Of a stretch of 64,000 nt of DNA, positions 11,325-62,830 are shown piece by piece. Below the pieces are notes generated by a model, which saw only the letters and a program-made list of their open reading frames with translations, was not told the DNA's origin and ran no database searches. The translations under genes and the position numbers were made by a program. Each line of letters opens with the position of its first letter. Position 1 is the first letter of the stretch. Origin of the DNA: Acidimicrobiia bacterium (GTDB taxonomy: Bacteria; Actinomycetota; Acidimicrobiia; Spongiisociales; ZC4RG35); contig WFOA01000010.1 in NCBI GenBank assembly GCA_015488325.1, positions 15,945 to 79,944 on the forward strand, in the 5' to 3' direction.

Positions 11325-11433
11325 GCGGGTCCCCGACCGCGGGCTAGCCTGCCCCGCAGTCGTGACCGAGGGTGGAGTGGCGGACAGGGCGGAGATCCCC
11401 AGAGGAGACGAGGAGGGGCTGAAAGCCGGCGCG

Positions 11434-13739: not shown

Positions 13740-13754
13740 CTTCGTGTCCCGGCC

Positions 13755-14906
13755 TCAGCCGCCCCTCGGGTCGGGGCCGGCAGAGACGACCCTTCGGGCG
13801 ATGTCTCGCCACAGGTCCACGGCGAGGCTCTCGGGAAGGGAGACGTCGGCGGTCTGGAGGACGGCTCCGCGGGGCACCGGCCGTTCGACGACGGCGTCGC
13901 GAATCAGCCCGATGGGGACGTGCTCGGGATGGTCGACGATGCGGACCGCCCGGCCCCGGAGATCGAAGGATCCGATCCCCCGGTCGAGACGGTCGCCGGG
14001 ATGCAGGTCCCGTTTCGCCACGGCCGCCAGGGACAGCTCGGGGCGAGCCGAGTTGTCGAGGAGCACCCCGCCCCCTTCCGTCACCCGTCGGATCGTCTTG
14101 AGGATCTCCAGATGCACGAAGATGTTGGGTCGGACGAGGGTGTAGTAGGGCCCGTCGCCCATCTTGTAGTACCGCAGGGCCGGGGCCTGGTCGGGGTCGT
14201 GGGTGGCGACGATGAACACGCCGTGGCTGAGATGGGGTGAGACGACGAAGTCGGTCACCGGCCGCCCCACCTTCTCCGCCAGCGACGCCAGGCGGGCGGC
14301 GCCGTCGGACAGGTCGTCGACCGCCGCCCCTTCCATGCCGTCGGGCCCGATGGTGGCACCGAAACGGTTCCCGACGAGGACCTGTTCGGCTTCGACCTTG
14401 GTGCCGTCGGTGAAGGCGGTCACCATCGGGAGGCTGATGCCCTGACGCTCGGCCCAATACTCCATCTCGTCGGGGGTGGGATCCCGGTTGAGGAACCCTT
14501 TCATGTTCCCGTAGGCGACGGGCCGAAAGCCCATCGCCACTGCCTCTTCGTGCAGCTCGGCGAGACAGCCCGGCTGGTCGCCGGCGGCTTCGGTCACGAC
14601 CCCTCGGCCGACGAAAGCCGAGCCGGTGGTGATGTGGAACTCGGTGTTCATGGTGACGACCGGGACGCCGCGGTCGACGGCCGCGGCCACCACGTCGGTC
14701 GCCCAGATGGGATCACCCGAGCATTCGACGACGACGTCGGCGTGGTCGACGAGCTCGTCGATCGAACGGGTGACCAGGTCGTCGTCGAAGACGTCCACCG
14801 TCCGACGTCGGGTGAGCACCTTGACGATACGGGCCGTGTCCCTCCGCCGGACTTCGGTGGCGAAGTTCCGGGCGATGAAGCCGGTTCCGACCAGACCCAG
14901 GTTCAT
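13755..14906 (-). CDS. NAD(P)-binding oxidoreductase with C-terminal SAF domain (COG4091-like 'predicted homoserine dehydrogenase' family, typical of sugar-modification clusters)
   Basis: N-terminal Rossmann motif ([15 protein letters not shown]). Start ATG overlaps the rmlA stop (ATGA). The long upstream extension in the ORF track is a compositional artefact. Confidence 0.65.
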
Positions 14907-15808
14907 CGGATCGGCCTCGACCGGGGTGCCCAGCCGCTGAAGGGCTGGTCCAACAGCTCGAGCAGGTACTGGCCGTACTGGGAGGAACGCATGGCACCGG
15001 CGAGCCGGCGGACCTGTTCGGCGTCGATGTAGCCCATCCGCCAGGCGATCTCCTCGGGGGCTGCGATCTGCAGACCCTGGCGGCGTTGGATCGTGGCGAT
15101 GAAGTTGGAGGCTTCGAGCAGGGCGTCGTGGGTTCCCGTGTCCATCCAGGTGGTTCCCCGGCCCAAGAGCTGCACCGACAGTCGGCCCTGTTCCAGATAC
15201 ACCCTGTTGAGGTCGGTGATCTCGAGTTCGCCCCGGGCCGACGGTTTCAGGCCTTTGGCGATGGAGGAGACGTCGCCGTCGTAGAAGTAGAGCCCGGTGA
15301 CGGCGAAGTTCGAACGGGGCCGTTCCGGTTTCTCCTCGATGGACAGCACCGTGCCCTTCTCGTCGAACTCGATCACCCCGTACCGCCGGGGGTCTCGCAC
15401 GTAGTAGGCGAACACGAGGGCCCCTTCGGTGAGGGCGGCGGCCTCCTGCACCCGGTCGGTGATGCCGTAGCCGAAGAAGATGTTGTCGCCGAGGATCAAA
15501 GCGACGGGGTCGCCGTCGACGAACCGTTCCCCGACGATGAAGGCGTCCGCCAGGCCCCGCGGTTCGGGCTGAAAGGCGTACGAGAAGCTGAGTCCCCACT
15601 GACTGCCGTCTCCGAGGACGTTGTGGAAGCTGGGGGCGTCGCCGGGGTTGGTGATGACGAGGATGTCGCGGATCCCGGCCAGCATCAGCACCGAGAGCGG
15701 GTAGTAGATCATCGGCTTGTCGAACACCGGTAGGAGCTGTTTGGAGACCCCCCGGGTGACGGGGGCCAGCCGGGTCCCCGAGCCGGCAGCGAGGATGATC
15801 CCTTTCAT
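14903..15808 (-). CDS. rmlA: glucose-1-phosphate thymidylyltransferase
   Basis: [39 protein letters not shown]... is the canonical RmlA/RfbA N-terminus. ATGA overlap with the upstream epimerase stop. Confidence 0.9.
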
Positions 15809-16842
15809 CCCTCCGGCTCCAGGTCGATGAGAGCTCCGTCGAGCTCCACTTCGGCGAGACGGCGGCGCCATTCGGTGAGCAGCCGGTACCACTCGAGGGT
15901 GATGGTGTCGGGGGTCCGGTCGGTGAGACCCGCCGAGAGGGCCTCCACCACCTCCTGGACCCCGTCGATGGCGGTGAGTTCCGCCTTGTACCCCCGGGAT
16001 TCGATCTTGTCGAAGCACACCCGGTAGGACCGGTGGTCGGGGTCTCCGTACCATTCGATCTCGACGTCGTCGCCCACCGTTTCGGCGACGAGCCGGCCGA
16101 GGGGCCCGATCTGGTACACGTTCGCCTCCGAGCCCACGTTGAAGATCTCCCCGCTCACGTCCGAATGGGGAGCTTCGATGGCCCAGATGAGGGCGCGGCT
16201 GGTGTCGGCGACGTGGACCATCGGGCGCCACTGGCTTCCGTCCCGCATCAGCGGGAGACGACGATGTTTCCACGCCCCGTACGTCATCCCGTTGATGGCC
16301 AGGTCGAAACGCATCCGCGGGGAGTAGCCGTACACCGTCGCCTGGCGGAGCACCACCACACCGAAGGTGTCGCAGGCCAGGGGCAGCACCCCCGCCTCGG
16401 CCCGCTCGTTGGCCTGGGCGTAGATGGTGAGGGGGTTGGTGGGATGGGTCTCGTCGGCCACCACGTCGGGGTCTTGGAACCCGTACACCGAACAGGAGCT
16501 CGGCAGCACGTATCGTTCCACCCCGGCTTCACGGGCCAGACGGGCGCATCGCACCCTCGCCTCGTAGTTGATCTGCCAGGTGGCTTCGGGGAAGAGGGCG
16601 CCGCTGGGGTCGTTGGAGATGGCGGCCAGGTCGATCACGTACCGGACCCCGGAGAAATGGTCGGGACGCAGGCGTCGGGTGTCTTCGGTGATCTTCTCCA
16701 CCCGGTCGTCGTCGGCGAGGCGGTCCCGCCCGAAGAAGAACCGGTCGATGACCCGTACCCGGTATCCCCGTTCGACCAGCATCGGGACCAGGGTGGTGCC
16801 GATGTATCCGCCGCCGCCGGTCACCATCACCAGATCACTCAT
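15805..16842 (-). CDS. NAD-dependent epimerase/dehydratase family protein (extended SDR)
   Basis: [14 protein letters not shown] Rossmann motif. The active-site region reads [11 protein letters not shown], i.e. Y-x3-N where extended SDRs normally have Y-x3-K. Overlaps rmlC (ATGA). Confidence 0.8.
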
Positions 16843-17411
16843 GGGGTCTCCTCGTCGTAGGTGAAGTACACGGGCAGGTCGGCGAAGCGGGGCTGTCTCC
16901 GGTCTTTCTCGGAGACGATGGCCTCGTCGGGGGCCACCGGCCAGTCGATCCCGAGGTCGGGGTCGTCCCAGGCCACCCCCCGGTCCACGTCGGGTGACCA
17001 GTGACTCGTGACCTTGTACAGGACTTCGGTGTTGGGTTGGAGGGTGCAGAACCCGTGGGCGAAGCCCACCGGCACGTAGACCTGGTTCCAGGCCTCCGCC
17101 GACAGTTCGACGGCGACGTGCCGCCCGAAGGTGGGTGAACCTCTGCGGAGGTCGACGAGGACGTCGAAGACGGCTCCGGCGGTGACCCGCACCAGCTTGG
17201 ACGTGGCCGCCGGGGGGACCTGGAAGTGGAGACCGCGTACCACTCCGACGTCCACCGAGAGGGAGTGGTTGTCTTGAACGAAGTCATCGTGGATGCCCAG
17301 CTCGGCGAGGGTTCGGCGGTTGTACACCTCGGAGAAGAAGCCCCGTTCGTCTCGGTGACGGTCCGGTACGAACAGCCACGCCCCCGGCAGCTCGAGCTCG
17401 ATCGCTTCCAC
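16839..17411 (-). CDS. rmlC: dTDP-4-dehydrorhamnose 3,5-epimerase
   Basis: RmlC cupin motifs (DERGFFSE, RGLHFQ, HGFCTL). GTG start (VEAIELEL...) preferred over the GTG 18 nt upstream. Confidence 0.85.
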   Translation of the reverse strand: MEAIELELPGAWLFVPDRHRDERGFFSEVYNRRTLAELGIHDDFVQDNHSLSVDVGVVRGLHFQVPPAATSKLVRVTAGAVFDVLVDLRRGSPTFGRHVAVELSAEAWNQVYVPVGFAHGFCTLQPNTEVLYKVTSHWSPDVDRGVAWDDPDLGIDWPVAPDEAIVSEKDRRQPRFADLPVYFTYDEETP

Positions 17412-17500
17412 CTGGCCTCCCCTCCACACCCACGGTCATGTTACCCGCCGGCACCGGGCCGACAAGGTGCGTCTCGAACCCCGCCGGAGCGTTTCCCAGG

Positions 17501-18679
17501 TCACCGCCCCAGCACCTCGTGGTAGAGACGCTCCAACTCGGCGGCCACTCGGTCCGGGCGAAATCCCTGCTCCACCACCCGTTTGGCGGCGGCACCGAGG
17601 CGGGCCCGCAGCTCGGCGTCTTCCGCCAGCTCGACGATCGCCGCCGCCAGCGCCTCAGGGTCCTGGGGTGGGACCGTGAGACCGCTTTCGCGGTCGGTGA
17701 CGACGTCGCTCATCGGGGGAACACCGGTGACGACGACCGCGCATTCGGCGGCCATCGCCTGCAGCATCGCCACCCCGATCCCTTCGAACAGGGAAGGGAA
17801 GGCGAAGACGTCGGCGGCCGCCAACAGGTCGACGACGTCACGGCGGTGCCCGAGGAACCGCATTCGGTCGCCGAGACCGGACGCGGCGAGCCGTCTCCGG
17901 AGGTCGTCGCTGAGACTGCCCGGCGTGCCGGCGACCAGGGCCCGAGCGGTGGGGATCCGGTCCACCACGAGCCGCATCGCTTCGATCAGGTAGCGCTGAC
18001 CCTTCTGGGGGGCTTCCCGGCCGATGTTCACCACGAGGAAGGTGTCCTCTGCCCAACCCATCTCCCCGAGGATCCGCTTCCGGGCGGCCTCACGGCCGCC
18101 GACGGGGACGAGATCGGCCGGGTCGACCGCCCGGGGGATGACGGCGATCCGTTCGTCGGCGATACGAGCGGTGTCTCTCCACGACCGAGCCACCTCCCCG
18201 GAGATGGCATGGAAACGGGTGACCAGCCGCATGGTGGTGGTGTCCACCACCTGGTAGGCCCGCAGCTTCCACCAGGCCAACGGGTTGTCGAGGGATTTCA
18301 CCTTCTCGTTGGCGATGTTCACCAGGGTCTCCACCACAGGAACGCGGAGGCGACGCCCGGCGAACCGGGCCGCCAAGGCGGCGTCGGCGAGGGAGCAGTG
18401 GACGAGGTCCGGCTCCAGATCGCGAAGTACACGGATGAGGTCACGGGCCCGGGTCCAGGGCCCGGGACGGGCGACACCCTTCGGGTACAGGTGGACGACC
18501 GGCACGGTCGAAGGCACTTCGTCCCTTCGCGACGGATCGACTTCGTAGAGGCAGACGAGGCTGTGGCGCAGCTCGGGGTCGGTGAACGACCGGAGGTTGG
18601 TGACGAGTTGCTGTTCGGCCCCCCCGGTCGCCGCGATCGAGTTGATGACGTGGACGACATGCGCCCGTCTGCGCGTCAT
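17501..18679 (-). CDS. glycosyltransferase family 4
   Basis: Starts MTRRRAHVVHVINSIAATGGAEQQ. GT4 C-terminal signature (FAFPSLFEGIGVAMLQAMAAECAVVVT). Upstream ORF-track extension is an artefact. Confidence 0.8.
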   Translation of the reverse strand: MTRRRAHVVHVINSIAATGGAEQQLVTNLRSFTDPELRHSLVCLYEVDPSRRDEVPSTVPVVHLYPKGVARPGPWTRARDLIRVLRDLEPDLVHCSLADAALAARFAGRRLRVPVVETLVNIANEKVKSLDNPLAWWKLRAYQVVDTTTMRLVTRFHAISGEVARSWRDTARIADERIAVIPRAVDPADLVPVGGREAARKRILGEMGWAEDTFLVVNIGREAPQKGQRYLIEAMRLVVDRIPTARALVAGTPGSLSDDLRRRLAASGLGDRMRFLGHRRDVVDLLAAADVFAFPSLFEGIGVAMLQAMAAECAVVVTGVPPMSDVVTDRESGLTVPPQDPEALAAAIVELAEDAELRARLGAAAKRVVEQGFRPDRVAAELERLYHEVLGR

Positions 18680-18681
18680 GG

Positions 18682-18748
18682 TTCGGTGCGCTCCCGGCTC
18701 GGTGTCCTCCTCCGCCTCGACGAACCCGGCGTCTGCGGGCACCGAACC
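18682..18748 (-). promoter_or_regulatory. 10-bp inverted repeat GGTTCGGTGC...GCACCGAACC (47-nt spacer) in the 5' leader, abutting the GT4 start codon at 18679; possible RBS-occluding leader structure
   Basis: Arms at 18682-18691 and 18739-18748. No flanking A/T tract, so it is not a typical intrinsic terminator. Confidence 0.3.
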
Positions 18749-18846
18749 GTTCGCGTCGCTCCCCCGTCCGGCATGGGTTCCCCTCTCGAACGTCCACCGC
18801 GCATTATCGGACGCCGACGGGTTCAGGACCAAGTTCCCCACCTCGG

Positions 18847-19629
18847 TCACGGGCCCCGGTACCCCGACACCAATGACCGCACCCGATCTTCCAGGCTGAG
18901 GCCGCCACGCACCCGGGGCCCGAAGAACACCCGGCCGTCGGCCGCCTGCACGGGGATGCGGGGGATGCGGTGGCGGTCGGTTCCGGGCCCGACCGGGCCG
19001 GGACGTCCCAGCACGGCCGTCTCGTATCGCCGCCGGACCACCCCGTCGGCCCCCTCCGACCAGTAGCCCCACGGGTAGGCGAAATGGCGGGGCCGGATCC
19101 CCAGGCGCCGCTCGATGAGCTCGTCGGAGGCGGCGAGCTCGGATTCGACCTGGTCGGGCGCCAAGGAGCGTAGGTCGACGTGTCGATGGGTGTGAGCGCC
19201 GATCGTGACGAGGCCCGACGCCACCATCTCCTCCACCTGTTCCCAGCGCAACGGGCGGCCGTCGGGGTAGAGGGGCGTTCCCGTCTCGACGGGTTCGGTG
19301 GTGAGGAACAGGGTGAAGGGCATCTGCAAGTCGCGCAGCAGCGGGAACGCGTGCTCGTAGACATCGACGTAGCCGTCGTCGAAGGTGATCGCGACCTCCA
19401 GGGTCTCGCCATGACCGCCATCGACGGCCTGTTCGAAGGGGAGCACCCGGGCGTGCTCCGCCAACCAGGCGACATGGGCGCGAAACACCTCGGGGGTGAC
19501 GTCCATCTGGCGGGCGGATCCGCCCCCCACCTGGTGGTAGATGAGGATGCGGGGCCCGGCGACAGGCGAGAGGAGTGGGTCGGCCACGACCGCGGCCATC
19601 TTGAGGAGTCGCCGGATGAGGTGCGCCAT
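18847..19629 (-). CDS. polysaccharide deacetylase (NodB-homology, carbohydrate esterase family 4)
   Basis: NodB motifs (ITFDDGY, HTHRH, LRDLQMPFTLF). Confidence 0.8.
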   Translation of the reverse strand: MAHLIRRLLKMAAVVADPLLSPVAGPRILIYHQVGGGSARQMDVTPEVFRAHVAWLAEHARVLPFEQAVDGGHGETLEVAITFDDGYVDVYEHAFPLLRDLQMPFTLFLTTEPVETGTPLYPDGRPLRWEQVEEMVASGLVTIGAHTHRHVDLRSLAPDQVESELAASDELIERRLGIRPRHFAYPWGYWSEGADGVVRRRYETAVLGRPGPVGPGTDRHRIPRIPVQAADGRVFFGPRVRGGLSLEDRVRSLVSGYRGP

Positions 19630-19633
19630 GGCC

Positions 19634-22429
19634 TCAGCGATGGGACATCGGGGGGCCGAGGGCGAGGAGCTCCTCGTCGGTGAGGACCGGCTGCGCCAGG
19701 AGCCCGAGACGCTGGACCGGCGCCAGGTTGGGGCGGATCCCCTCGGACCAGTCGGGGTCCCAGCCGAGGGGCTGCTCGTTGGCGGACCGCCACGGGTAGT
19801 AGATGCGGGCTCCGTCGATCGTCCCCTCGTAGAGCCAGCCGAGACTGATCTCGAAGTACCGGACCTCTTCGATCTGCTCTTGGAGGGCGGCGGCCGTCTC
19901 GGCCTGGTTCCGTTTCGCCGCCGCCCGTTGCTTGCGGTCCAGACGCTCGATCACGGCCTTCACGTAGTCGCCCGCCAGGTGGTCGAGGGCGTCACGGTCG
20001 AACCGGGGGGCGTAGACGAACACGTTGACGGCGCCCCGCTGGCTGGCCAGATGCCAGATCACCGGCGCCCGTTCGGTCGTGGCCACGTGGATCCGGAAGA
20101 AGTTGGCGACGAGCCACTCGTCGATGGTGGGGGCCTGCCCCCCTCCGACGGCCCCGATGATCCGGGTGATGTGACGTTCCAACTCGGCGGCGGCTTTGGT
20201 GCCGAGCTCGGCCCGCAACCCGGCGAGCAGGTAGGACCCCACCGTCCGGTATCCCCGAGCCTCGTCGAGGGGAAGGAAGTCCGGGATCTGGGAGAAACCG
20301 TGTTCGGTGGCGGCGACCGGCGAGGACATGAGGAGGTTCTCGACCCGGGAGACGAGGAAGTTGGCGACGGCCGGGTAGGCACGCTCCGGCTCGGCCTCCG
20401 CCAGACGCTCGACCAGCTCCAAGGCGACGGATTCGTCGACCGCGGCCGTTCCCGTCGGCGGCGGGATCGGCCCCCCGGCCGGAGGCTCGACGGTCGGTTC
20501 GACGACCTGGCCGTCACCGGTCTCGGCGTCGGCGTCCGCCGGGACCGCCGTGGCCTCCACGGTGGGCTCCGGCTCGGGTGTCGGCTCCGCCACCTCCCCT
20601 GGCGGGGCCTCGGTGTCGGTCACCGCTTCGACCAGGGTCCCCAGGTCGGCCTGGGCGGGCTCGAACGTGGAGATCCGGCGGGGACGGGGCGCCGGTGCAC
20701 GGGCGGGTTCGGCGGCCGGTTCCCGGGGGGCGACCGCCGGAGCGACCGGCCGACCCCGTCCGAGACCGGCCGCGGGCATGACGCCCCGCCGGTCCACGAA
20801 CACCGCTCCGAGGAACTTGGCTCCCCGATCTTCGAGATCCGCCACCCGGTCGGCGAGCTCGGTGCGAGAGACCCGACCCGGGACGAGGGTGACGACGGCG
20901 TAGTCGACCCGTTGCACCAGCTCCTGAGCGGTCGCCACGGTGAGGTCGTTGGCGGCGAACAGCACCAGGTCGAACCGGGCCGAAGCCACCCGGATGAGGT
21001 CGGCGAGGAGGGGGCGGGCCAGCAGCTCGGAGGGGTCTTCGGTGGGTGAGCCGGCCTGCACGGAGATGAGGTTGGGTCGGACCGGCCGGGCCTGCGCCAG
21101 TATCCGGGCGAGGGCGGCGTCGTCGCCTTCGGGGATCTCGAGCAGCGTGGCGAAGTCGACGTCGCCCCGGTACTCCACCATGTTGGTGTCGTGGGTGAAG
21201 TCGGCGTCCACCAACAGGACCGAACGCCCTGCCCGGGCGAACGCCACCGCCAGGTCGGCGGCGAGGGCGTGGACGTCCTCGGGTTGCGTGCCGAGGCCCG
21301 TGACCGCCACCGCCGCCCCCAAGCCTCCGATCCGACCCTGCAGCCCGGCACGGAGCCCCTGGACGGCACGTTTTCTCCGCCCCCCTTCTTCCGCGTCGTA
21401 CCAGATGCTCCGCCGTGACGGTTTGCGGATCGGTACGGCCGCGAGGAGGGGAAGCGGAGCCAGGTCGGCCCCGGTCCAGACCGGCTTGAACAGGCGGTCG
21501 ACGACCAGCAAGCCCGCCACAGCGAGGACGAGGCCGACCAGCAGGCCGATGGCTCCGGCCGCTCCCCGTGAGACGGGGTCCGGTGTCTGGTCCACGACGT
21601 CGATGACCTCGGACACGACCGGGCCCGACAGCGCCGCCTGACGGAGGAACAGCTCCTGGAACGAAGCCTCCAACTCTTCGTATTCCCGTTCGAGGGCCCG
21701 GCGCAGGGTCTGCTCCGCGCTGAACTCGGAGACCGTCGGCGGCGGGCCGAGCCGGTCGAGCTGGGCGTTGACGGTGGCGATCGCCAGGGTCGTACGGTCG
21801 AGATCCGCCTGAACTTCGTCTTCGGCTCGGTCGCTGCCGACCAGCAGCTCCTTTTGGTATTCGAGGGCGTCGGCCCGCAGCGACTCGAGGAGCGCCTGCA
21901 GTTCGGCCCGCTCCTCCTCGTCGGGGTCGACGGCGACAGGCGAGCCGATGGCCTCGATCCGGGCCCGCACGTCCGCCATCCGGGCGGAGATCTGTTCGAG
22001 TTGGGTCTGGATCTGCTCCAGGACGTTGGGGGGCTGGCCTTCGAGATACCGGGACCGCAGCTCGCCGGCCCGGGCCTGCGCCTCCTCGGTGCTCGACCCT
22101 TCGGCGACGAAGACGAGGGCGCCTCGATCGACGTCGCTGAAGATCTCCCAGGAGGGGTTGGCCTCGAGCAGGTCGGCGTTCACTTCGAGGGCGAAGGCGA
22201 GGGCCTCTTCGAGACGGGCCTGGGCGAAGTCTCGGGACACACCCGACGGGTTGTCTTCGCTCTCGACGCTGGCGACGACGGTGACCGGGGCCTCCGCCCG
22301 GATCACCGGGGTCAGGGAGGCGTTCCTCCAGGCGGCGCCGAACACGCCGGCGGCGAAGCCGAGCACGGCGAACACCACCACCCAGGGCCAGCGGGCCCGG
22401 AGGACACGAAGGGTGCGGGTCAGGTCCAA
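19634..22429 (-). CDS. multidomain envelope protein: Wzz-like polysaccharide co-polymerase (2 TM segments + coiled coil), a degenerate BY-kinase/ParA-like ATPase domain, a Pro-rich linker, and a ~270-aa C-terminal domain of unknown function
   Basis: TM1 at residues 14-33 and TM2 near residue 295 flank a charged coiled-coil region. The ATPase domain has Walker A' (VLLVDADFTHD) but a degenerate Walker A (TGLGTQPED, no GK[ST]). A P/E/A-rich linker follows. The C-terminal domain (VALELVERLAEAEPERAYPAVANF...WDPDWSEGIRPNLAPVQ) matches nothing I recognise. Confidence 0.8.
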   Translation of the reverse strand: MDLTRTLRVLRARWPWVVVFAVLGFAAGVFGAAWRNASLTPVIRAEAPVTVVASVESEDNPSGVSRDFAQARLEEALAFALEVNADLLEANPSWEIFSDVDRGALVFVAEGSSTEEAQARAGELRSRYLEGQPPNVLEQIQTQLEQISARMADVRARIEAIGSPVAVDPDEEERAELQALLESLRADALEYQKELLVGSDRAEDEVQADLDRTTLAIATVNAQLDRLGPPPTVSEFSAEQTLRRALEREYEELEASFQELFLRQAALSGPVVSEVIDVVDQTPDPVSRGAAGAIGLLVGLVLAVAGLLVVDRLFKPVWTGADLAPLPLLAAVPIRKPSRRSIWYDAEEGGRRKRAVQGLRAGLQGRIGGLGAAVAVTGLGTQPEDVHALAADLAVAFARAGRSVLLVDADFTHDTNMVEYRGDVDFATLLEIPEGDDAALARILAQARPVRPNLISVQAGSPTEDPSELLARPLLADLIRVASARFDLVLFAANDLTVATAQELVQRVDYAVVTLVPGRVSRTELADRVADLEDRGAKFLGAVFVDRRGVMPAAGLGRGRPVAPAVAPREPAAEPARAPAPRPRRISTFEPAQADLGTLVEAVTDTEAPPGEVAEPTPEPEPTVEATAVPADADAETGDGQVVEPTVEPPAGGPIPPPTGTAAVDESVALELVERLAEAEPERAYPAVANFLVSRVENLLMSSPVAATEHGFSQIPDFLPLDEARGYRTVGSYLLAGLRAELGTKAAAELERHITRIIGAVGGGQAPTIDEWLVANFFRIHVATTERAPVIWHLASQRGAVNVFVYAPRFDRDALDHLAGDYVKAVIERLDRKQRAAAKRNQAETAAALQEQIEEVRYFEISLGWLYEGTIDGARIYYPWRSANEQPLGWDPDWSEGIRPNLAPVQRLGLLAQPVLTDEELLALGPPMSHR

Positions 22430-24417
22430 ACCGTCGAAACCTCGGGTTCTGGGGTGAGGACGATCGTCTCGTCGCCGCCCCCAGTATGCCGCGCCAGCGC
22501 CCGCAACATGTCGACGACGTCCTCCAACGCCCCTTTGCGGGCGGCCCGCTCCAGCATCTCGACCCCGTCGGAGAGGGTGGTGACCCCCGGCCGAGGCGGA
22601 TGGGCGATCGAGATCTTCGGGTGCTCCGACGGCTCGAGGGCACCTTCGGCGAGGACCTCCACCATCTTCTCGCCCGGCCGGACCCCGCTGACGACGACTT
22701 CGATGTCGCGGCCGGGGACGAGTCCGGCGAGGCGGATCAGACGCCGAGCCAGGTCGGCGATCCGGATCGGCTCGCCCATGTCCAGCACGAACACCTCGCC
22801 GCCTTCGGCGAGGGCGGCGGCCTGGAGGACGAGCTGGACCGCCTCGTCGACCGTCATGAAGTACCGGGTCATGCTGGGGTCGGTGAGCGTGACCGGCCCG
22901 CCCTTCTTGATCTGCTCGACGAAGGTGGGCACGACACTGCCGCGGCTGCCGAGGACGTTCCCGAACCGCACGGCGGTGTAGGTGCAGCCGTCGGCACGCA
23001 GGTCGGCGGCCTGGACGAGCATCTCGGCGACCCGCTTGGTGGCGCCCATCACCGAGACGGGATCCACCGCCTTGTCGGTGGAGATCAACACGAACCGCTC
23101 CGCCCCGACCTGGGTGGCGATGTCGATCATGTTCCGGGTGCCGATCACGTTGGTCAGCACCGCCTCGTCCGGGAACCCTTCGAGGATCGGTACGTGTTTC
23201 AGCGCCGCCGCATGAAAGATGACCTGAGGCCGGTACGGGGTGACACGTCGCGCCAACATGTCGGCGTCCCGCACGTCGGCGAGGATCGGCGTGATCTCGG
23301 CGTCGGGTCCGCAGCCCAGCACCGTCTCGTGGAGGTGGGTCTCGTCGTTGTCGAGCGCCAGCACCGTCTCCGGACCGAACCGGAGGACCTGACGGACGAT
23401 CTCGGAACCGATCGAGCCTCCGGCCCCGGTGACGAGGACCCTTCTGCCCCGCAAGAGGCCCGCCACCGCGGCCAGGTCCGTCGAGACGGTGGCTCGAGGC
23501 AGCAGGTCGGTGAGTTCGATGTCTCGGACATCGACCGCGCCGGCGGAACCTTCCATCACCCGATGGGCGACGGGGAGGATCCGCAGCCGCACGTCGACGT
23601 CGGTGCAGAGGTCGACGACCCTCCTGCTGAGGTAGTCGTCGTCGGCCACGACGATCACCTGCTCGGCTCCGTACCGCTCGATCACGTCGTGCAGTTCGTC
23701 GAGGTCCCCCAAGATGGGCAGTCCGGCCAGACGGCGGACACTGTCGGCGCCTCCGGTCGAGACGAACCCGATGATGTCGATCTCACCGCCGTTGCTCGTC
23801 ACCTCACGGACGAAATCCGCCGCCGCCCGGCAGGTGCCGACGACGAGGGTGGGGAGCGGCCGCCCACCGGTGATGGTCCGTTTGAACGAGAACAGCCGCG
23901 ACCGGAACCGCACCAGGCCCATCCCGGCGAGGGCGAGCAGCGGGCCCATGATCGCCACCGACAGCGGGATCGGCACCAGGCCGTCGGAGGTGACGTCCAC
24001 CCAGAGCACCCAGCCGGTGACGGCCATGCCGACGACGACGTTGGAGGCGATCACCTGTTTCGCCTCGGAGATCGAGGCGAACTCCCAGACGTGCCCGTAG
24101 GCGCCGAAGACGACGTTGGCCGCGAGGTGCAGCAACAACAGCAGGGGCATCGTCCGGGTGAGGCCCGTCCACCAGGTGAGGGGGTCGGTGATCCCGGTGT
24201 CGAGCATCCGCAGCCCCAGGGCGATCGTATAGGCGCCGACGACGATGGCCAGGTCGACCACGGCGAAGGCGATGTCCGCCCGCACCCTGGAAGCGGCCGC
24301 GGCCAGCGGCCTCCACCATCGTCCAGCCCTTGTCCCCAAAACAGATCCGGTGTCTGCCACCAGAACCTCCCAGCTCTCGCATCCCCACTTGACCCCGTCG
24401 GGGTCAGTCGGATACAT
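22420..24417 (-). CDS. membrane-anchored nucleotide-sugar 4,6-dehydratase/epimerase (CapD/PglF/WbpM family)
   Basis: N-terminal TM helices followed by two Rossmann-like regions (VLVTGAGGSIGSEI) and an extended SDR C-terminal domain. Confidence 0.85.
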   Translation of the reverse strand: MYPTDPDGVKWGCESWEVLVADTGSVLGTRAGRWWRPLAAAASRVRADIAFAVVDLAIVVGAYTIALGLRMLDTGITDPLTWWTGLTRTMPLLLLLHLAANVVFGAYGHVWEFASISEAKQVIASNVVVGMAVTGWVLWVDVTSDGLVPIPLSVAIMGPLLALAGMGLVRFRSRLFSFKRTITGGRPLPTLVVGTCRAAADFVREVTSNGGEIDIIGFVSTGGADSVRRLAGLPILGDLDELHDVIERYGAEQVIVVADDDYLSRRVVDLCTDVDVRLRILPVAHRVMEGSAGAVDVRDIELTDLLPRATVSTDLAAVAGLLRGRRVLVTGAGGSIGSEIVRQVLRFGPETVLALDNDETHLHETVLGCGPDAEITPILADVRDADMLARRVTPYRPQVIFHAAALKHVPILEGFPDEAVLTNVIGTRNMIDIATQVGAERFVLISTDKAVDPVSVMGATKRVAEMLVQAADLRADGCTYTAVRFGNVLGSRGSVVPTFVEQIKKGGPVTLTDPSMTRYFMTVDEAVQLVLQAAALAEGGEVFVLDMGEPIRIADLARRLIRLAGLVPGRDIEVVVSGVRPGEKMVEVLAEGALEPSEHPKISIAHPPRPGVTTLSDGVEMLERAARKGALEDVVDMLRALARHTGGGDETIVLTPEPEVSTVWT

Positions 24418-24441
24418 CCTACCCGCGGACCGACATCATCA

Positions 24442-24461
24442 AATGGGCCGTCCGGCCCATT
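24442..24461. promoter_or_regulatory. 20-bp palindrome AATGGGCCG-tc-CGGCCCATT in the divergent capD/epimerase promoter region
   Basis: Perfect 9-bp inverted arms with a 2-bp spacer. Confidence 0.45.
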
Positions 24462-24613
24462 CCTGGGTCCCGGGACTCATTGTCGACCGCGACCGGAAAG
24501 TCCCACTTCCCGCCGCCCGATGCACCGTCTAGCCTGGCCCGGGGCGGCGCCGCATCGGCGCCAGTTCGCCACCACATCACGACTCGGTGCGAGCCAGGGA
24601 GGTTCGAAGAGCT

Positions 24614-25498
24614 ATGAAAGTGCTCGTCACGGGGGCAGCCGGTTTCTTGGGGAGAACGGTCGCCACCTATCTGAAGGAGCAAGGACATCACGTCGTCGGG
24701 TTCGACCTGAAAGACCCGGGAATCGACGGTCTCACGATGCAGATCGGTGACCTCACCGACCTCGATCAGGTCTCGGCTGCGGTCGAAGGCCACGACGCGG
24801 TGTGTCACATCGGAGCGATCGGCGACGTCTACCTGGCCGGGGAGGATCCCGGCCTGGCGGCGGCGGTCAACGTGTTGGGGACCGCCAACGTCGCCGAAGC
24901 GGCGGTGCGTCACGGCGCCCGGGTGGTCTACGCCTCCACGTGGGAGGTCTACGGTGAACCCCGATACCAGCCGATCGACGAAGACCATCCCTGCGCCCCC
25001 GACCACCCGTACAACATCACGAAGCTGGCGGGCGAGTCGCTGCTGCTGTCGGCTGCACGTCTCCGTGGGCTCGAGACGGTCGCCCTCCGTCTCGGCACCG
25101 CCTACGGGCCGGGTCTGCGCCCGAACTCGGTGTTTCGGATCTTCATCGACCGGGCACGCCGAGGCGAGCCGATCACCATTCAGGGTGACGGCTCCCAGGG
25201 GCGGCAGTTCACCCACAGCCGCGACATCGCCCGGGCCTTCGACCTGGCGCTCCGGTCCGACGTCTCCGGGGTCGCCCTGAACACGGTGGCGACACGGACC
25301 GTGACGATTCGTGAGCTGGCGGAGAAGGTGGTCGAACGGTTCCCCACCGAGCTCACCTTCGGACCGCCCCGTCCCGGCGACGTCCCTCCGGCGACCGTCT
25401 CGGCGGCCCGGATCGCCGACGTCCTCGGATGGGAGGCGCAGATCCCCTTCGAGGACGGGCTCGCCGACCTGATCGACCATGAGCTCGCCGGAGACTGA
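24614..25498 (+). CDS. NAD-dependent epimerase/dehydratase (UDP-glucose-4-epimerase-like, short form)
   Basis: ATG preceded by GGGAGG. MKVLVTGAAGFLGRTV Rossmann motif. Catalytic YNITK (YxxxK). Confidence 0.85.
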   Translation: MKVLVTGAAGFLGRTVATYLKEQGHHVVGFDLKDPGIDGLTMQIGDLTDLDQVSAAVEGHDAVCHIGAIGDVYLAGEDPGLAAAVNVLGTANVAEAAVRHGARVVYASTWEVYGEPRYQPIDEDHPCAPDHPYNITKLAGESLLLSAARLRGLETVALRLGTAYGPGLRPNSVFRIFIDRARRGEPITIQGDGSQGRQFTHSRDIARAFDLALRSDVSGVALNTVATRTVTIRELAEKVVERFPTELTFGPPRPGDVPPATVSAARIADVLGWEAQIPFEDGLADLIDHELAGD

Positions 25499-26585
25499 CG
25501 GGCGGATCCTCGTTCTCGTCTACGGGCTCGGCCTCGGCGGCGCCGAGAAGCTCCTCGCCACCTCGGCTCCGCTGTGGGCCGAGTCGTCGTTCACCTACCG
25601 GGTCGCCTACGTGCTCCCCTGGAAGGACCAGCTCGTCGACACCATCCGGAGGTCGGGAGTCGAGGTGGACTGTCTCGGAGGGAGAGCCTCCGACCCCCGG
25701 GTCGCCTTCCGACTGCGACGCCTCATCCGGTCCTGGAGACCCGATCTGGTCCATGCCCACCTTCCGATCGCCGGGACCATCGCCCGGGTCGTCTCCCCCG
25801 TCCCCGTCGTGTACACCGAGCACAACCTCGCCGGCTCCTACCGGCCTCTGGTCCGCCTCGGCAACCGGGTGACCTACCGGGCGAACGCGGCGGTGATCGC
25901 CGTGTCGGACGCCGTGGCATGCTCCCTCGAGGGCTACCCGGGCCCGACCCCTCGGGTCGTGCCCAACGGCGTGCTCTGCGAGGTCGGCGCCGACGAGGCG
26001 GAGGCGGCGAGACACGAACTCGACCTCGACCCTGACGCCAGACTCGTCGTACACGTGGGCAACCTCCGCCCCCACAAGGGACACCGGAACCTGGTCGAGG
26101 CAGCGGCGGTGCTGGAACAGGCCGGATCGAAGGCGATCCTGGTCTCCATCGGTGGGGAGAAACACCCCGGCGACCTCGAACGCCTCCGAGCCGAAGTCGC
26201 CGCCCGGGGTCTCGAGCACCGGCTCAGATTCCTCGGCCGTCGCGAAGACGCCCGGGCGTTCATCGCCGCCGCCGACGTGTTCGTCAGCCCCGCCGACGTG
26301 GAGGGGCTCCCCGTGGCGATCCTCGAAGCCCTCGCCCTGGGCCGCCCGGTGGCGGCGACGGCGGTGGGGGGTGTCCCCAGCGTCGTCGTCGACGGTGAAA
26401 CCGGAATCCTGGTACCGCCGGGCGACCCGGAAGCCCTCGCCGAGGCCGTCGAACGCCTCCTCGCCGACGCCGAATGGGCGGCGCGGCTGGGCAAGGCGGG
26501 ACAGGCCCTCGTGGAGACCGAGTACGGCCTCGAGAAGATGGTGGACGCCTACGAACGGGTGTACCGAGAGATCCTCGGGACATGA
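25479..26585 (+). CDS. glycosyltransferase family 4
   Basis: GT4 fold (ILVLVYGLGLGGAEK...HVGNLRPHKGH...VFVSPADVEGLPVAILEALALGRPVAATAVGG). Overlaps the upstream gene by 20 nt. Confidence 0.85.
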   Translation: MSSPETDGRILVLVYGLGLGGAEKLLATSAPLWAESSFTYRVAYVLPWKDQLVDTIRRSGVEVDCLGGRASDPRVAFRLRRLIRSWRPDLVHAHLPIAGTIARVVSPVPVVYTEHNLAGSYRPLVRLGNRVTYRANAAVIAVSDAVACSLEGYPGPTPRVVPNGVLCEVGADEAEAARHELDLDPDARLVVHVGNLRPHKGHRNLVEAAAVLEQAGSKAILVSIGGEKHPGDLERLRAEVAARGLEHRLRFLGRREDARAFIAAADVFVSPADVEGLPVAILEALALGRPVAATAVGGVPSVVVDGETGILVPPGDPEALAEAVERLLADAEWAARLGKAGQALVETEYGLEKMVDAYERVYREILGT

Positions 26586-27526
26586 CCGGCCCGAGCATCC
26601 GCCTCGCCCGACCCGACGATCTCCCCCAGATCCTCGACGTCCTGCGGGCCGCCCTGGGCGAGACGCCCCTGTTGCGACGCACCCCGGAGCTGTGGCGTTG
26701 GAAACACGTCGAGAACCCCTTCGGGCCGTCTCTGGTCCTCGTCGCCGAAGCCGACGGCCGGGTCGTCGGGGTACGGGCCTTCATGCGTTGGGAGTTGGAG
26801 ACGCCCGACGGTGACACCCTCCGGTGCGTCAGGGCGGTCGACACCGCCACCCATCCCGACTATCTGCGACGGGGGATCTTCCGGCGTCTGACCGAGTCGG
26901 CGATCGAATACGCCCGGGACGAAGGGGTGGATCTGGTCTTCAACACCCCCAACGCCAAGTCGGGGGCGGGATACCTGAAGATGGGGTGGCGGACCGTCGC
27001 CCGACTCGGGGTGATCGTCCGATGGCGGACGGGTCGGGTCGCACCCCTCGATTCCGATACCGTGCCCCGCCTCGACGACCATGTGGCGGCGGTCGACCCG
27101 CTGGATCCGCTGCCCCCGGCCAGACGGGGACACGGTCTCAGGACTCCCCGCCGCGACGCCTACCTCCACTGGAGGTTCTCACAGCATCCGACGGCACGCT
27201 ACGGAGCCGTCCGGTTCGGATCCGGGACCGCCGTGGTGCGACCCAACGTCCGTGCAGGACGCCGGGAGCTGGTGGTGTCGGACGTCCTCGGTGACGCCAC
27301 CGCGGGGCTGTTCCGGGAGGTGGCGAAGAGGAACCGCTCCCGCTACGTGGCCACCTGGTTCTCCCCGGCGGCACCGGAACGGCGCATAGCCCGACGTGCC
27401 CTGTACGCTCCGGTTCCGGGACTGCGGACCCTCACCCTCGTGGCCCGACCGCTACGGTCCCTCCCCGTGGACGTCTTCGATCTGGGGAACTGGGATCTGG
27501 CGGTGAGCGACCTGGAGTTGCTGTGA
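26582..27526 (+). CDS. GNAT-family N-acetyltransferase (Acetyltransf_6/FemAB-like) with C-terminal extension
   Basis: ATG overlaps the previous stop (ATGA). GNAT core (HPDYLRRGIFRRLTESAIEYARDEGVDLVFNTPNAKSGAGYLKMGW). Confidence 0.75.
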   Translation: MTGPSIRLARPDDLPQILDVLRAALGETPLLRRTPELWRWKHVENPFGPSLVLVAEADGRVVGVRAFMRWELETPDGDTLRCVRAVDTATHPDYLRRGIFRRLTESAIEYARDEGVDLVFNTPNAKSGAGYLKMGWRTVARLGVIVRWRTGRVAPLDSDTVPRLDDHVAAVDPLDPLPPARRGHGLRTPRRDAYLHWRFSQHPTARYGAVRFGSGTAVVRPNVRAGRRELVVSDVLGDATAGLFREVAKRNRSRYVATWFSPAAPERRIARRALYAPVPGLRTLTLVARPLRSLPVDVFDLGNWDLAVSDLELL

Positions 27527-28869
27527 GACAGCAGATCGTCCTCGGGATCGGCGCCGGGTTGACGGCACTGGTCGCGTTCGTCCTCGCCGCCGGCGCCGTC
27601 CCCCTCCACCTCGTGGTGCTGGCGGTGGCCGGCCTCTCCGTCACCTACCTGGTGGGTCGGGCGATGGCGACGGACTTCGACCGGTCCTGGCTCCCCGGTC
27701 TCCTGGTGGCCGGACTGGCCGCGAAGCTGGTCGGGGCCTGGGTCCGGTACTTCGTCCTCATCGAGGTGTACGGCGGTGTGGGTGACGCCCTCGGATACCA
27801 CAGCCGAGGCCTCCGCCTCGCCGAGATGTTCCGGGCGTTCACGGTCCCCACCTTCGAGGACGCCGGTTTCGGGTCGACCGGCACCCGGTTCGTCTCCTGG
27901 TTCACGGGTCTCGTCTACACGCCGTACCAGCCCGAGCCCCTCGGCGGTTTCTGGCTGTTCTCGCTGATCGCGTTCGCCGGCACGGTTCTCTTCTACGCGG
28001 CGGTGCGACGCAGCCTGCCACCGTCGACGTGGCGGCGGTTCCTCATCATGCTGATGTTCTGGCCGACGCTGCTGTACTGGCCGTCGTCGGTGGGCAAGGA
28101 AGCCCTGATCCTGGGCTTCGGAGGGGTGGTGACCTACGGGGCGGCGCGGCTGTTCGAGCGGTACCGCCTGAGCTGGCTGCTCGTCATCGGCGCGGCGATG
28201 GCCGTCATAGGCATCATCCGGGTCCACGTCGCCGGCCTGTTCGCCGGAGCGATCGTCGTCGGCATGCTCGTCTCCGCCGCACCTCGCGGTGCAGGCCCGA
28301 AGAGTCGCCGCCTCCTCCTCATGGCGGCCGGGTTCGCGGCGCTCATCCCCCTGGCCGCCCTGGTCTCGAGGGAGTTCGGCATCGACCCCAGCGGCCCCCT
28401 CGACCCCTCCGCCCTCGAGCCGGTCCTGTCCGAGGTGGCCCGCACCACCGGCCAGGGAGGCTCGGCGGTGCAGGGCGGGGTGATCCGCTCCATCGCCGAC
28501 GTCCCGGCCGGTGTCCTCAAGGTGTTGTTCCGTCCCCTCCCCTACGAGGCGTCCAACATCCAGATGCTGGCGGCCAGCGTCGAGGGCGTGGCGTTGCTCC
28601 TGTTGATCCTCTCCCGCACCCCGTGGATGATCGGGAACCTGCGTCGGCTGCGCCGCTTCCCGTATCTGATCTTCGCCGCCACGTTCTCGGCCGGTTTCGT
28701 GGTGGCCTGGAGCGCGATCCTCAACCTGGGGATCATCGCCCGCCAGCGGGCCCTCGTCATCCCCTTCGTCCTGACCCTCGTCGCCGGCCTCGGCTGGCCC
28801 CTGGCCGCCGGCGAGGAGCCGGCTTCCGCTGCCGAACCCGACCGGGACGCCGCCCTCAACCCCACTTGA
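27523..28869 (+). CDS. polytopic membrane protein, candidate Wzy-type polysaccharide polymerase
   Basis: 448 aa with about 10-12 predicted TM helices and a larger loop in the C-terminal half. Sits among glycosyltransferase genes. Polymerase function is inferred from context only. Confidence 0.6.
   Translation: MRQQIVLGIGAGLTALVAFVLAAGAVPLHLVVLAVAGLSVTYLVGRAMATDFDRSWLPGLLVAGLAAKLVGAWVRYFVLIEVYGGVGDALGYHSRGLRLAEMFRAFTVPTFEDAGFGSTGTRFVSWFTGLVYTPYQPEPLGGFWLFSLIAFAGTVLFYAAVRRSLPPSTWRRFLIMLMFWPTLLYWPSSVGKEALILGFGGVVTYGAARLFERYRLSWLLVIGAAMAVIGIIRVHVAGLFAGAIVVGMLVSAAPRGAGPKSRRLLLMAAGFAALIPLAALVSREFGIDPSGPLDPSALEPVLSEVARTTGQGGSAVQGGVIRSIADVPAGVLKVLFRPLPYEASNIQMLAASVEGVALLLLILSRTPWMIGNLRRLRRFPYLIFAATFSAGFVVAWSAILNLGIIARQRALVIPFVLTLVAGLGWPLAAGEEPASAAEPDRDAALNPT

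Positions 28870-58411: not shown

Positions 58412-62830
<4,419 letters not shown>

What the first reader, a model, noticed from the sequence alone, without database searches (positions are those of the whole stretch)
19634..22429. Co-polymerase fused to a degenerate BY-kinase-like ATPase and an unrecognised 270-aa C-terminal domain
The N-terminal portion has Wzz/Wzc architecture: TM helix, about 260 aa of charged coiled coil, then a second TM helix. The cytoplasmic ATPase domain keeps Walker A' (VLLVDADFTHD) but has lost the Walker A lysine (TGLGTQPED instead of GxxxxGK[ST]). It also lacks the C-terminal Tyr-cluster of bona fide BY-kinases. In its place, after a Pro/Glu-rich linker, is a ~270-aa domain (from ESVALELVERLAEAEPERAYPAV to the C-terminal GPPMSHR) that I cannot assign to any known family. 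This suggests a non-phosphorylating co-polymerase variant whose cytoplasmic output is a novel module. It is the best candidate for an undescribed component in this window.
Basis: partly seen in the sequence, partly recalled or inferred. Interest (0 to 1): 0.75.

Follow-up and report, generated by a model that had tools for sequence, protein, structure and literature searches.

The report
Dead-kinase co-polymerase with borrowed PglX tail
This gene encodes a membrane protein that helps build a surface polysaccharide; its kinase domain is catalytically dead, and in place of the usual tyrosine tail it carries a domain copied from the end of the BREX phage-defence methyltransferase PglX, a region previously reported to have no homologs outside BREX.

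Summary
Window 19634-22429 (-) is one continuous 931-aa gene. It has two TM helices around a Wzc-like extracytoplasmic domain and a BY-kinase-fold domain. That domain lacks the Walker A GK[ST], the Walker A' Arg, the Walker B Asp and the Tyr cluster. A ~110-aa disordered Pro/Glu linker and a folded ~270-aa C-terminal module follow.

The module is not an orphan. [quoted passage not shown]

The fusion defines a family of about 50 clusters at 50% identity. It was found almost only in Acidimicrobiia MAGs, nearly always between a CapD-like dehydratase and a polysaccharide deacetylase in a Wzx/Wzy cluster. No BREX genes are nearby.

In this family the module has lost PglX's metal ligands and its basic DNA-contact patch, and it is acidic. 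It most likely acts as a protein-interaction or assembly module.

Fused BY-pseudokinase co-polymerases are already described. The PglX-derived module on one is new: a new variant of a known kind.

The parts
19634..22429 (-). Whole gene: 931-aa PCP-2a-like co-polymerase with a dead BY-kinase domain and a PglX-CTD-like C-terminal module (stop codon 19634-19636)
   Evidence: ORF; uniform GC3 ~0.9; full-length orthologs at 78, 72 and 32% identity; AF2 model with mean pLDDT 83
22322..22390 (-). TM helix 1 (res ~14-36), preceded by an Arg-rich cytoplasmic N-terminus
   Evidence: Hydropathy; model helix 14-37; W14 is invariant in the family
21569..22321 (-). Extracytoplasmic PCP (Wzz/Wzc-like) domain, res ~37-287: alpha/beta base plus long helices
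   Evidence: Foldseek of the full-length model: full-length Wzc 7nhr_A E=4e-19 over ~680 columns; secondary structure
21488..21568 (-). TM helix 2 (res ~288-314)
   Evidence: Hydropathy; model helix 288-314
20786..21487 (-). Cytoplasmic juxtamembrane segment plus BY-pseudokinase domain (res ~315-548). It includes the family-conserved W343-Y344...R352-K353..Q357..R360 (a modified ExxRxxR), the degenerate Walker A TGLGTQPED (res 377-385 = 21275-21301), the Walker A' remnant VLLVDADFTHD (res 404-414 = 21188-21220) and the Walker B position A492
   Evidence: NCBIfam TIGR01007 E=7e-15, below its cut-off; motif alignment with bona fide BY-kinases; Foldseek matches to Wzc, CapAB, Etk and BceF kinase domains with TMt 0.7-0.8; no Walker A in any family member
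20444..20785 (-). Disordered Pro/Glu/Ala-rich linker (res ~549-662). It sits where canonical BY-kinases carry the Tyr cluster and contains one short helix (res 596-604, DLGTLVEAV)
   Evidence: pLDDT <50 for 550-592 and 606-662; least conserved segment, pairwise identity 0.17
19637..20443 (-). PglX/BrxX distal-CTD-like module (res ~663-931): N-terminal helices, the G[FI]xPL loop (equivalent to the BrxX D997-I1001 metal loop), helices, a beta-hairpin WHLxS...VxVFV (the three-stranded sheet/wHTH of BrxX), a two-helix hairpin (812-839 and 843-868) and a conserved tail YPW..QPxGWxPxWSEGxRPNxAPxQRLGLLxxPVLTxEEL
22420..24285 (-). Upstream, overlapping gene: membrane-anchored CapD/PglF-like NDP-sugar 4,6-dehydratase (Polysacc_synt_2). 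It is a conserved neighbour
   Evidence: Pfam PF02719 E=1e-105; synteny in 13 of 14 Acidimicrobiia loci
18847..19629 (-). Downstream gene: polysaccharide deacetylase (Polysacc_deac_1), starting 5 nt after the target's stop. It is a conserved neighbour
   Evidence: Pfam PF01522 E=1.6e-26; synteny
9247..33601 (.). Surrounding Wzx/Wzy-type polysaccharide cluster: GT1/GT2/GT4 transferases, Wzx flippase (11377-12897 +), DRL oxidoreductase, RmlA/RmlC and epimerases, GNAT, a ~10-TM 448-aa putative Wzy (27523-28869 +) and a WecA-like initiating transferase (28856-29794 -). It holds no BY-kinase, no phosphatase and no BREX genes
   Evidence: Pfam scans; TM count; tblastn with BY-kinases and PglX hits only the target gene

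Best explanation
The gene encodes the polysaccharide co-polymerase (PCP-2a, Wzc-like) of a Wzx/Wzy-dependent cell-envelope glycan pathway in an Acidimicrobiia (Actinomycetota) bacterium. It belongs to the phosphorylation-independent type.

Shown:
- It has the Wzc scaffold: N-in, TM1, extracytoplasmic helical domain, TM2, cytoplasmic BY-kinase fold.
- Every catalytic signature of the kinase is lost (Walker A Lys/Ser, Walker A' Arg, Walker B Asp, Tyr cluster).
- At the position of the Tyr-rich tail it carries a disordered ~110-aa linker and a ~270-aa module.
- Across the family the module keeps the PglX fold core and the C-terminal tail motif. It has lost the PglX metal ligands and the invariant basic K-x-R DNA-contact patch, and it has become net acidic.

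Inferred:
- The module no longer binds DNA. It serves as a protein-protein interaction or assembly module tethered below the pseudokinase ring.
- In that role it replaces tyrosine phosphorylation as the means of controlling co-polymerase oligomerisation, or it recruits cytoplasmic or membrane partners of the pathway.
- The module was captured once, most parsimoniously from a PglX gene, early in Acidimicrobiia. It has since been inherited vertically with the gene cluster.
For: Architecture and dead kinase. No member of the 2-TM class has GxxxxGK[ST].

PglX homology.

Class-specific changes, 48 membrane-class versus 16 MTase-class modules:
- BrxX K1076 position: K in 16/16 MTases and 0/48 here.
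- R1078 position: R in 16/16 MTases, E in 30/48 here.
- D999 position: D in 16/16 versus 11/48.
- Y1113 position: Y in 14/16 versus 4/48.
- Net charge: -6.8 versus +1.7, Mann-Whitney p=5e-7.

Literature on the PglX region:
- K1076E/K1077E abolishes BREX defence, and D997/D999/D1012/Y1113 bind the metal in BrxX (PMC11842806).

Family and context:
- About 50 clusters at 50% identity, 820-975 aa.
- 14 loci in Acidimicrobiia/Actinomycetes MAGs.
- Conserved CapD -> target -> deacetylase synteny inside a Wzx/Wzy cluster.
- The module is as conserved as the pseudokinase, whereas the linker is not.
- The module tree separates a PglX clade from the membrane-protein sequences.

Precedent: BY pseudokinases act as scaffolds for PCP-2 proteins, and fused versions exist (PMC12004946).
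Against: - No direct evidence for any binding partner or oligomeric role; only monomer models could be made.
- The full-length model gives no confident inter-domain packing (pTM 0.44).
- The beta-sheet/wHTH-like element and the FFxRH motif are retained, so residual nucleic-acid binding is not excluded.
- The function of the homologous region in PglX is itself unsettled (DNA contact and/or partner binding).
- The direction of domain transfer rests on taxonomic breadth, not on a rooted tree. The NJ tree is crude and midpoint-rooted.
- All family members come from uncultured MAGs or metagenomes.
Confidence: 0.6

Rival explanations
1. The module keeps a nucleic-acid-binding role. The protein would be a membrane-tethered wHTH that couples envelope polysaccharide assembly to the nucleoid or cell cycle (compare the CpsD-ParB coupling in pneumococcus), or to gene regulation.
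For: The homologous BrxX region contacts DNA non-specifically and was annotated as a three-stranded wHTH plus helical extension (PMC11842806, PMC12839542). The beta-hairpin, W792 and FFxRH are conserved in both classes. The long flexible linker would allow reach.
Against: The basic residues shown to matter in BrxX (K1076/K1077, plus the invariant R1078) are replaced by D/E/G-R/G-E. The module is net acidic, -6.8 versus +1.7 in PglX. No regulator-type operon context is present.
Confidence: 0.15
2. The module ties surface-glycan synthesis to phage defence. It could recruit BREX-type partners (BrxB/BrxC/PglZ) encoded elsewhere, or act as a decoy for anti-BREX proteins such as Ocr.
For: The only homologs are BREX PglX proteins. 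The PglX C-terminal region is thought to contact other BREX factors (PMC11341690, PMC13326643). Surface polysaccharides are phage receptors and barriers (general knowledge).
Against: No BREX gene lies in the 64-kb window or in the 20-kb flanks of 14 related loci. The locus is a vertically conserved biosynthetic cluster, not a defence island. The Ocr-contacting basic residues are not conserved.
Confidence: 0.05
3. The ATPase-like domain is still an active, unconventional kinase or ATPase, and the module is one of its substrates or regulators.
For: The DxD of Walker A' and the overall fold are kept.
Against: The P-loop Lys/Ser, the Walker A' Arg and the Walker B Asp are all missing. The Walker A segment is not even conserved within the family. 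There is no Tyr cluster and no cognate phosphatase gene in the cluster.
Confidence: 0.04
4. The fusion is an artefact: a frameshift, a misassembly, or two adjacent genes read as one.
For: None beyond the unusual domain combination and the low-complexity linker.
Against: The codon-position GC signal is continuous. The same architecture is seen in ~50 independent 50%-identity clusters from different samples and assemblers. The apparent stand-alone copy is a truncated gene call.
Confidence: 0.01

Closest known systems
Wzc / PCP-2a polysaccharide co-polymerases with a fused BY-kinase (E. coli Wzc, PDB 7NHR and 3LA6)
   Same: Same topology (N-in, 2 TM) and the same helical extracytoplasmic domain. 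Same cytoplasmic P-loop-type BY-kinase fold (Foldseek E=4e-19 full-length; TMt ~0.7 for kinase domains). Same kind of Wzx/Wzy gene-cluster context.
   Different: All catalytic motifs and the Tyr cluster are lost. The host is presumably monoderm and has no Wza/OPX partner in the cluster. An extra linker and a 270-aa C-terminal module are present.
BY pseudokinases and phosphorylation-independent PCP-2 proteins (M. xanthus EcpK/EpsV, C. crescentus HfsB/HfsA; fused variants such as S. meliloti SMc01795) - PMC12004946
   Same: BYK fold without Walker motifs and without a Tyr tail. Presumed scaffold role in a Wzx/Wzy pathway. A single-polypeptide PCP+pseudokinase, like the fused variants listed there.
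   Different: The described examples are from Gram-negative bacteria, and none is reported with a C-terminal PglX-like module. Here the pseudokinase is followed by a long disordered linker and a large folded domain. No sequence-level orthology to EcpK or HfsB was tested.
Distal C-terminal region of the BREX type-1 methyltransferase PglX/BrxX (Salmonella PglX 961-1225, PDB 8C45; E. coli BrxX CTD, PDB 9EWZ)
   Different: No methyltransferase, TRD or spacer helices, and no BREX neighbours. The metal ligands (D997/D999/Y1113 equivalents) and the basic K-x-R patch are lost, with a net charge reversal. It is attached to a membrane protein.

Membership tests
PCP-2a (Wzc-type co-polymerase with active BY-kinase) | Two TM helices flanking a large, mainly helical extracytoplasmic domain | tested here: met
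   Hydropathy; AF2 model; Foldseek to full-length Wzc E=4e-19
PCP-2a (Wzc-type co-polymerase with active BY-kinase) | Cytoplasmic BY-kinase (P-loop, MinD/ParA-like) fold | tested here: met
   TIGR01007 E=7e-15, but below the curated cut-off; Foldseek to Wzc/CapAB/Etk/BceF kinase domains, TMt 0.67-0.82
PCP-2a (Wzc-type co-polymerase with active BY-kinase) | Walker A GxxxxGK[ST] | tested here: not met
   TGLGTQPED at 377-385. No match in any of ~50 family representatives
PCP-2a (Wzc-type co-polymerase with active BY-kinase) | Walker A' (hhhhDxDxR) and Walker B (hhhhD) | tested here: not met
   VLLVDADFTHD keeps the DxD but lacks the Arg. The Walker B Asp aligns with A492
PCP-2a (Wzc-type co-polymerase with active BY-kinase) | C-terminal Tyr-rich cluster | tested here: not met
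   The kinase fold ends at ~548 and is followed by a Pro/Glu-rich linker without a Tyr cluster
Phosphorylation-independent PCP-2 with BY pseudokinase (PMC12004946) | BYK fold lacking the catalytic Walker residues and the Tyr tail | tested here: met
Phosphorylation-independent PCP-2 with BY pseudokinase (PMC12004946) | Encoded in, and required for, a Wzx/Wzy-dependent polysaccharide pathway | tested here: inconclusive
   The cluster context with Wzx, a putative Wzy, a WecA-like transferase and GTs is met and conserved. Requirement for biosynthesis cannot be tested in silico
Phosphorylation-independent PCP-2 with BY pseudokinase (PMC12004946) | Pseudokinase acts by direct protein-protein contact with the PCP base | not testable with these tools
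   Only monomer prediction is available. Here the two parts are covalently fused
BREX PglX/BrxX methyltransferase | N6-adenine MTase domain with NPPY motif, and a TRD | tested here: not met
   No Eco57I, N6_Mtase or MmeI Pfam hit. No NPPY in the 2-TM class
BREX PglX/BrxX methyltransferase | Distal C-terminal region fold (helices + three-stranded sheet + two-helix hairpin) | tested here: met
BREX PglX/BrxX methyltransferase | CTD metal site (BrxX D997, D999, D1012, Y1113) and basic DNA-contact residues (K1076/K1077, R1078) | tested here: not met
   Window residues are Q714/P716 at D997/D999, Y822 (kept) at Y1113 and E786-R787-A788 at the KKR patch. Across the family the K and R are 0/48 and ~0/48, against 16/16 in PglX
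BREX PglX/BrxX methyltransferase | BREX operon context (BrxA/BrxB/BrxC/PglZ) | tested here: not met
   None in the window cluster or in related loci. For contrast see the true PglX locus L022

The most novel reading that the evidence does not exclude
[quoted passage not shown] Acidimicrobiia would have co-opted it as a phosphorylation-free switch or recruitment platform for a Wzc-type co-polymerase. In the boldest version, it physically links envelope-glycan assembly to BREX-type partners or to phage sensing. On this reading the membrane-protein family gives a DNA-independent setting in which to work out what this module binds, and so what it does in BREX.
Probability: 0.3. Interest if true: 0.75.

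Novelty: new variant of a known kind. Interest (0 to 1): 0.55.

Why it matters
There are two reasons.

1. For polysaccharide assembly. How PCP-2 co-polymerases cycle between oligomeric states without tyrosine phosphorylation is an open question, raised by the recent description of BY pseudokinases. This family replaces the Tyr tail with a large folded module on a flexible tether. That points to a concrete alternative control or recruitment device, and it occurs in a poorly studied actinobacterial class.

2. For BREX. [quoted passage not shown] A clear homolog that has shed the DNA-contact and metal-binding residues but kept the fold core and tail motif separates what is structurally essential from what is DNA-related. 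It also offers an independent system for identifying the module's binding partners.

Tried and rejected
- Pfam on the whole protein and on the C-terminal 266 aa gave nothing usable for the module.
- A single-sequence search of PDB sequences gave no hit. Only the profile search did.
- The word-indexed homolog search badly under-sampled the family: 3 to 10 hits, against 627 in the exhaustive profile search.
- The search for related loci with the 43-sequence full-length alignment failed for lack of a conserved stretch. The small C-terminal alignment worked.
- The AFDB Foldseek library was unavailable, so fold occurrences outside PDB were not surveyed.
- Wozniak et al. 2023, on PglX C-terminal mutations, is not held. 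It is cited only through other papers.
- The 'stand-alone C-terminal domain protein' idea was rejected.
- The frameshift or artefact idea was rejected.
- A first GC3-based gene filter missed the target, but only because the stop-to-stop frame extends upstream into the preceding gene.
- I looked for a bona fide BY-kinase or PglX elsewhere in the window and found none.
- The midpoint-rooted NJ tree is too crude to decide the direction of domain transfer.
Full report
**1. Observation**

- Codon-position GC is that of a real gene throughout (GC3 ~0.9, GC2 ~0.5 in every 50-codon window). This holds across the Pro/Glu-rich linker and the C-terminal domain, so there is no frame break.
- The TTG is the first start in the frame. 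It overlaps the stop of the upstream gene by 10 nt and has a GAGG upstream.
- The resulting N-terminus (MDLTRTLRVLRARW) matches the family consensus.
- Hydropathy and the AlphaFold2 model give TM helices at ~14-36 and ~288-314, with a mainly helical extracytoplasmic domain between them.

**2. N-terminal 550 residues: a Wzc-like co-polymerase with a dead kinase**

- Pfam gives only sub-threshold CbiA and Wzz hits.
- NCBIfam gives BY-kinase models well below their cut-offs (TIGR01007, E=7e-15).
- The full-length model (43-sequence alignment, mean pLDDT 83, per-domain >90) best matches full-length E. coli Wzc (E=4e-19).
- Its cytoplasmic domain matches Wzc, CapAB, Etk and BceF kinase domains with target-normalised TM 0.67-0.82.

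Aligned with bona fide BY-kinases, the motifs are degraded as follows.
- The Walker A GK[ST] is replaced (TGLGTQPED), and the segment is not even conserved within the family.
- Walker A' keeps the DxD but lacks the Arg.
- The Walker B Asp aligns with A492.
- ExxRxxR has become xxxQxxR.
- There is no Tyr cluster.

None of the ~50 family representatives has GxxxxGK[ST]. The cluster encodes no phosphatase and no second BY-kinase.

This is a BY pseudokinase fused to its PCP. [quoted passage not shown]

**3. The C-terminal domain**

Residues 550-662 are predicted disordered. Residues 663-925 form a confident domain (C-terminal-only model pLDDT 93, pTM 0.90). Pfam has no model for it, and a single-sequence PDB search finds nothing. 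It is not an orphan, however.
- NCBIfam matches the C-terminal end of BREX-1, -5 and -6 PglX models (best E=3e-10).
- PADLOC matches 12 PglX HMMs and a type IIG RM model (best E=1.2e-15).
- An exhaustive profile search of 1.84 billion representatives finds 627 proteins (64 at E<1e-30). These fall into two clean classes.
  - One class is 2-TM proteins of 820-975 aa with the module at the C-terminus.
  - The other is cytoplasmic proteins of 1,000-1,700 aa with NPPY and Eco57I/MmeI methyltransferase domains.
- The closest methyltransferase, P0042, is 37% identical over 223 aa. It lies in a BrxA-BrxB-BrxC-PglX-PglZ-BrxL operon.
- A profile of both classes hits Salmonella PglX (8C45, E=2.9e-12) and E. 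coli BrxX (9EWZ, E=1.7e-11). The alignment starts exactly at BrxX D997.
- Foldseek returns only BrxX/PglX chains as significant (six chains, E 1e-6 to 3e-5, TM ~0.6; the next hit is at E=0.5).

The PglX region concerned has been described in three ways:
- as part of the BrxX CTD, with a metal site (D997, D999, D1012, Y1113) and non-specific DNA contacts, and reported to lack detectable homologs outside BREX (PMC11842806);
- as a three-stranded wHTH plus a two-helix extension (PMC12839542).

I found no paper linking PglX/BrxX to co-polymerases.

**4. What changed in the module**

I compared 48 membrane-class with 16 methyltransferase-class modules (a smaller set).

| BrxX position | Methyltransferase class | Membrane class |
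|---|---|---|
| K1076 | K in 16/16 | K in 0/48 (D/G/E/N instead) |
| R1078 | R in 16/16 | E in 30/48 |
| D999 | D in 16/16 | D in 11/48 |
| Y1113 | Y in 14/16 | Y in 4/48 |
| Module net charge | +1.7 | -6.8 (p=5e-7) |

- K1076E/K1077E abolishes BREX defence in E. coli (PMC11842806).
- The window protein has Q714/P716 at the D997/D999 positions and E786-R787-A788 at the KKR patch. It happens to keep Y822.
- Conserved in both classes are the fold core (G[FI]xPL, FFxRH, P789, W792-H-L-x-S796) and the tail motif (YPW..QPxGWxPxxxxGxRxNxAPxQxxGxL).
- Within the membrane class the module is about as conserved as the pseudokinase, whereas the linker is not conserved.

**5. Distribution and context**

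- A scan of GTDB species representatives found 14 loci of the membrane class, all in Acidimicrobiia or unclassified Actinomycetes MAGs. It also found three weaker loci in other phyla, presumed to be PglX genes.
- The window gene is 90% identical in its module to one of these MAG loci.
- The gene order WecA-like / 448-aa ~10-TM protein (putative Wzy) / GNAT / GT4 / epimerase, then divergently CapD-like -> target -> deacetylase, is conserved even where the target is only ~30% identical.
- In the window the cluster spans ~9.2-33.6 kb. It also holds Wzx, Rml-type sugar-nucleotide genes and several glycosyltransferases. No BREX gene is present.
- One MAG carries a second, shorter architecture: a short Wzz-like 2-TM part, an unidentified middle domain and the same module. 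It lies among aminotransferase and sulfotransferase-like genes (L014), and its module nests within the membrane class.
- The supposed stand-alone 275-aa homolog is a truncated gene call of the fusion.

**6. Interpretation**

Shown:
- a conserved, vertically inherited family of Wzc-type co-polymerases;
- a catalytically dead kinase domain;
- a PglX-derived C-terminal module in place of the Tyr tail;
- loss of the module's PglX DNA-contact and metal-binding signatures.

Inferred (confidence ~0.6 for the package, ~0.5 for the specific role):
- The module is a protein-interaction or assembly device. It either substitutes for phosphorylation-controlled oligomerisation or recruits pathway partners.
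- It was captured once, probably from a PglX gene, since PglX is pan-bacterial and this family is confined to one class.

Rivals:
- residual nucleic-acid binding (0.15);
- a functional link to BREX-type defence (0.05);
- an unconventional active kinase (0.04);
- an artefact (0.01, effectively refuted).

**7. Novelty and score**

- The 'non-phosphorylating co-polymerase' is a known kind.
- The combination, and the existence of a PglX distal-CTD homolog outside BREX, appear to be unreported. They contradict a published statement that this region has no homologs beyond BREX.
- I rate this a new variant of a known kind, interest 0.55. It is a real and moderately surprising domain co-option that gives both fields a testable handle. 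The mechanism is only inferred, and the hosts are uncultured.

Noticed in passing
window 2987-5200 (-): A 737-aa protein with beta-propeller repeats (PD40/Kelch) and three CWB2 cell-wall-binding repeats (PF04122, E=3e-53) lies a few kb from the polysaccharide cluster. CWB2 domains anchor proteins to secondary cell-wall polymers, so the cluster may make that anchoring glycan.
   Followed up: no
L014 8735-10765 (+): A second architecture carries the same module: 676 aa, with a short Wzz-like 2-TM N-terminus (weak GNVR hit) and an unidentified middle domain (LGDGSYVVLFPG, GGDEF-like by eye only), then the PglX-CTD-like module. It is flanked by DegT-type aminotransferase, Gfo/Idh/MocA and sulfotransferase-like ORFs. 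The same MAG also has the canonical version (L017).
   Followed up: partly
window 27523-28869 (+): A 448-aa protein with ~10 predicted TM segments and no Pfam hit is conserved in synteny at 32-49% identity in distant loci (up to 83% in the close relatives L001/L005). It is most likely the Wzy-type polymerase of the cluster.
   Followed up: partly
window 20615-20641 (res 596-604 of the target): A short predicted helix (DLGTLVEAV) sits inside the otherwise disordered, unconserved linker. An L..L..-type pattern recurs in distant family members. It could be a docking motif at the place where BY-kinases carry the Tyr tail.
   Followed up: no
proteins P0072, P0080, P0094: These proteins of 633-653 aa have no NPPY and no TM helix, yet carry a PglX-type (basic) version of the module and cluster with PglX modules in the tree. 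They may be split PglX C-terminal halves or another stand-alone context.
   Followed up: no
window 31547-33601 (-) and 29782-31536 (-): The cluster holds two unusual fused glycosyltransferases: NTP_transf_5 (an uncharacterised nucleotidyltransferase) fused to GT4, and GT4 fused to a GNAT acetyltransferase. Both are conserved in the related locus L001.
   Followed up: no
window 58412-62830 (-): A glutamate synthase large subunit (1472 aa). It is ordinary housekeeping and unrelated to the finding.
   Followed up: yes
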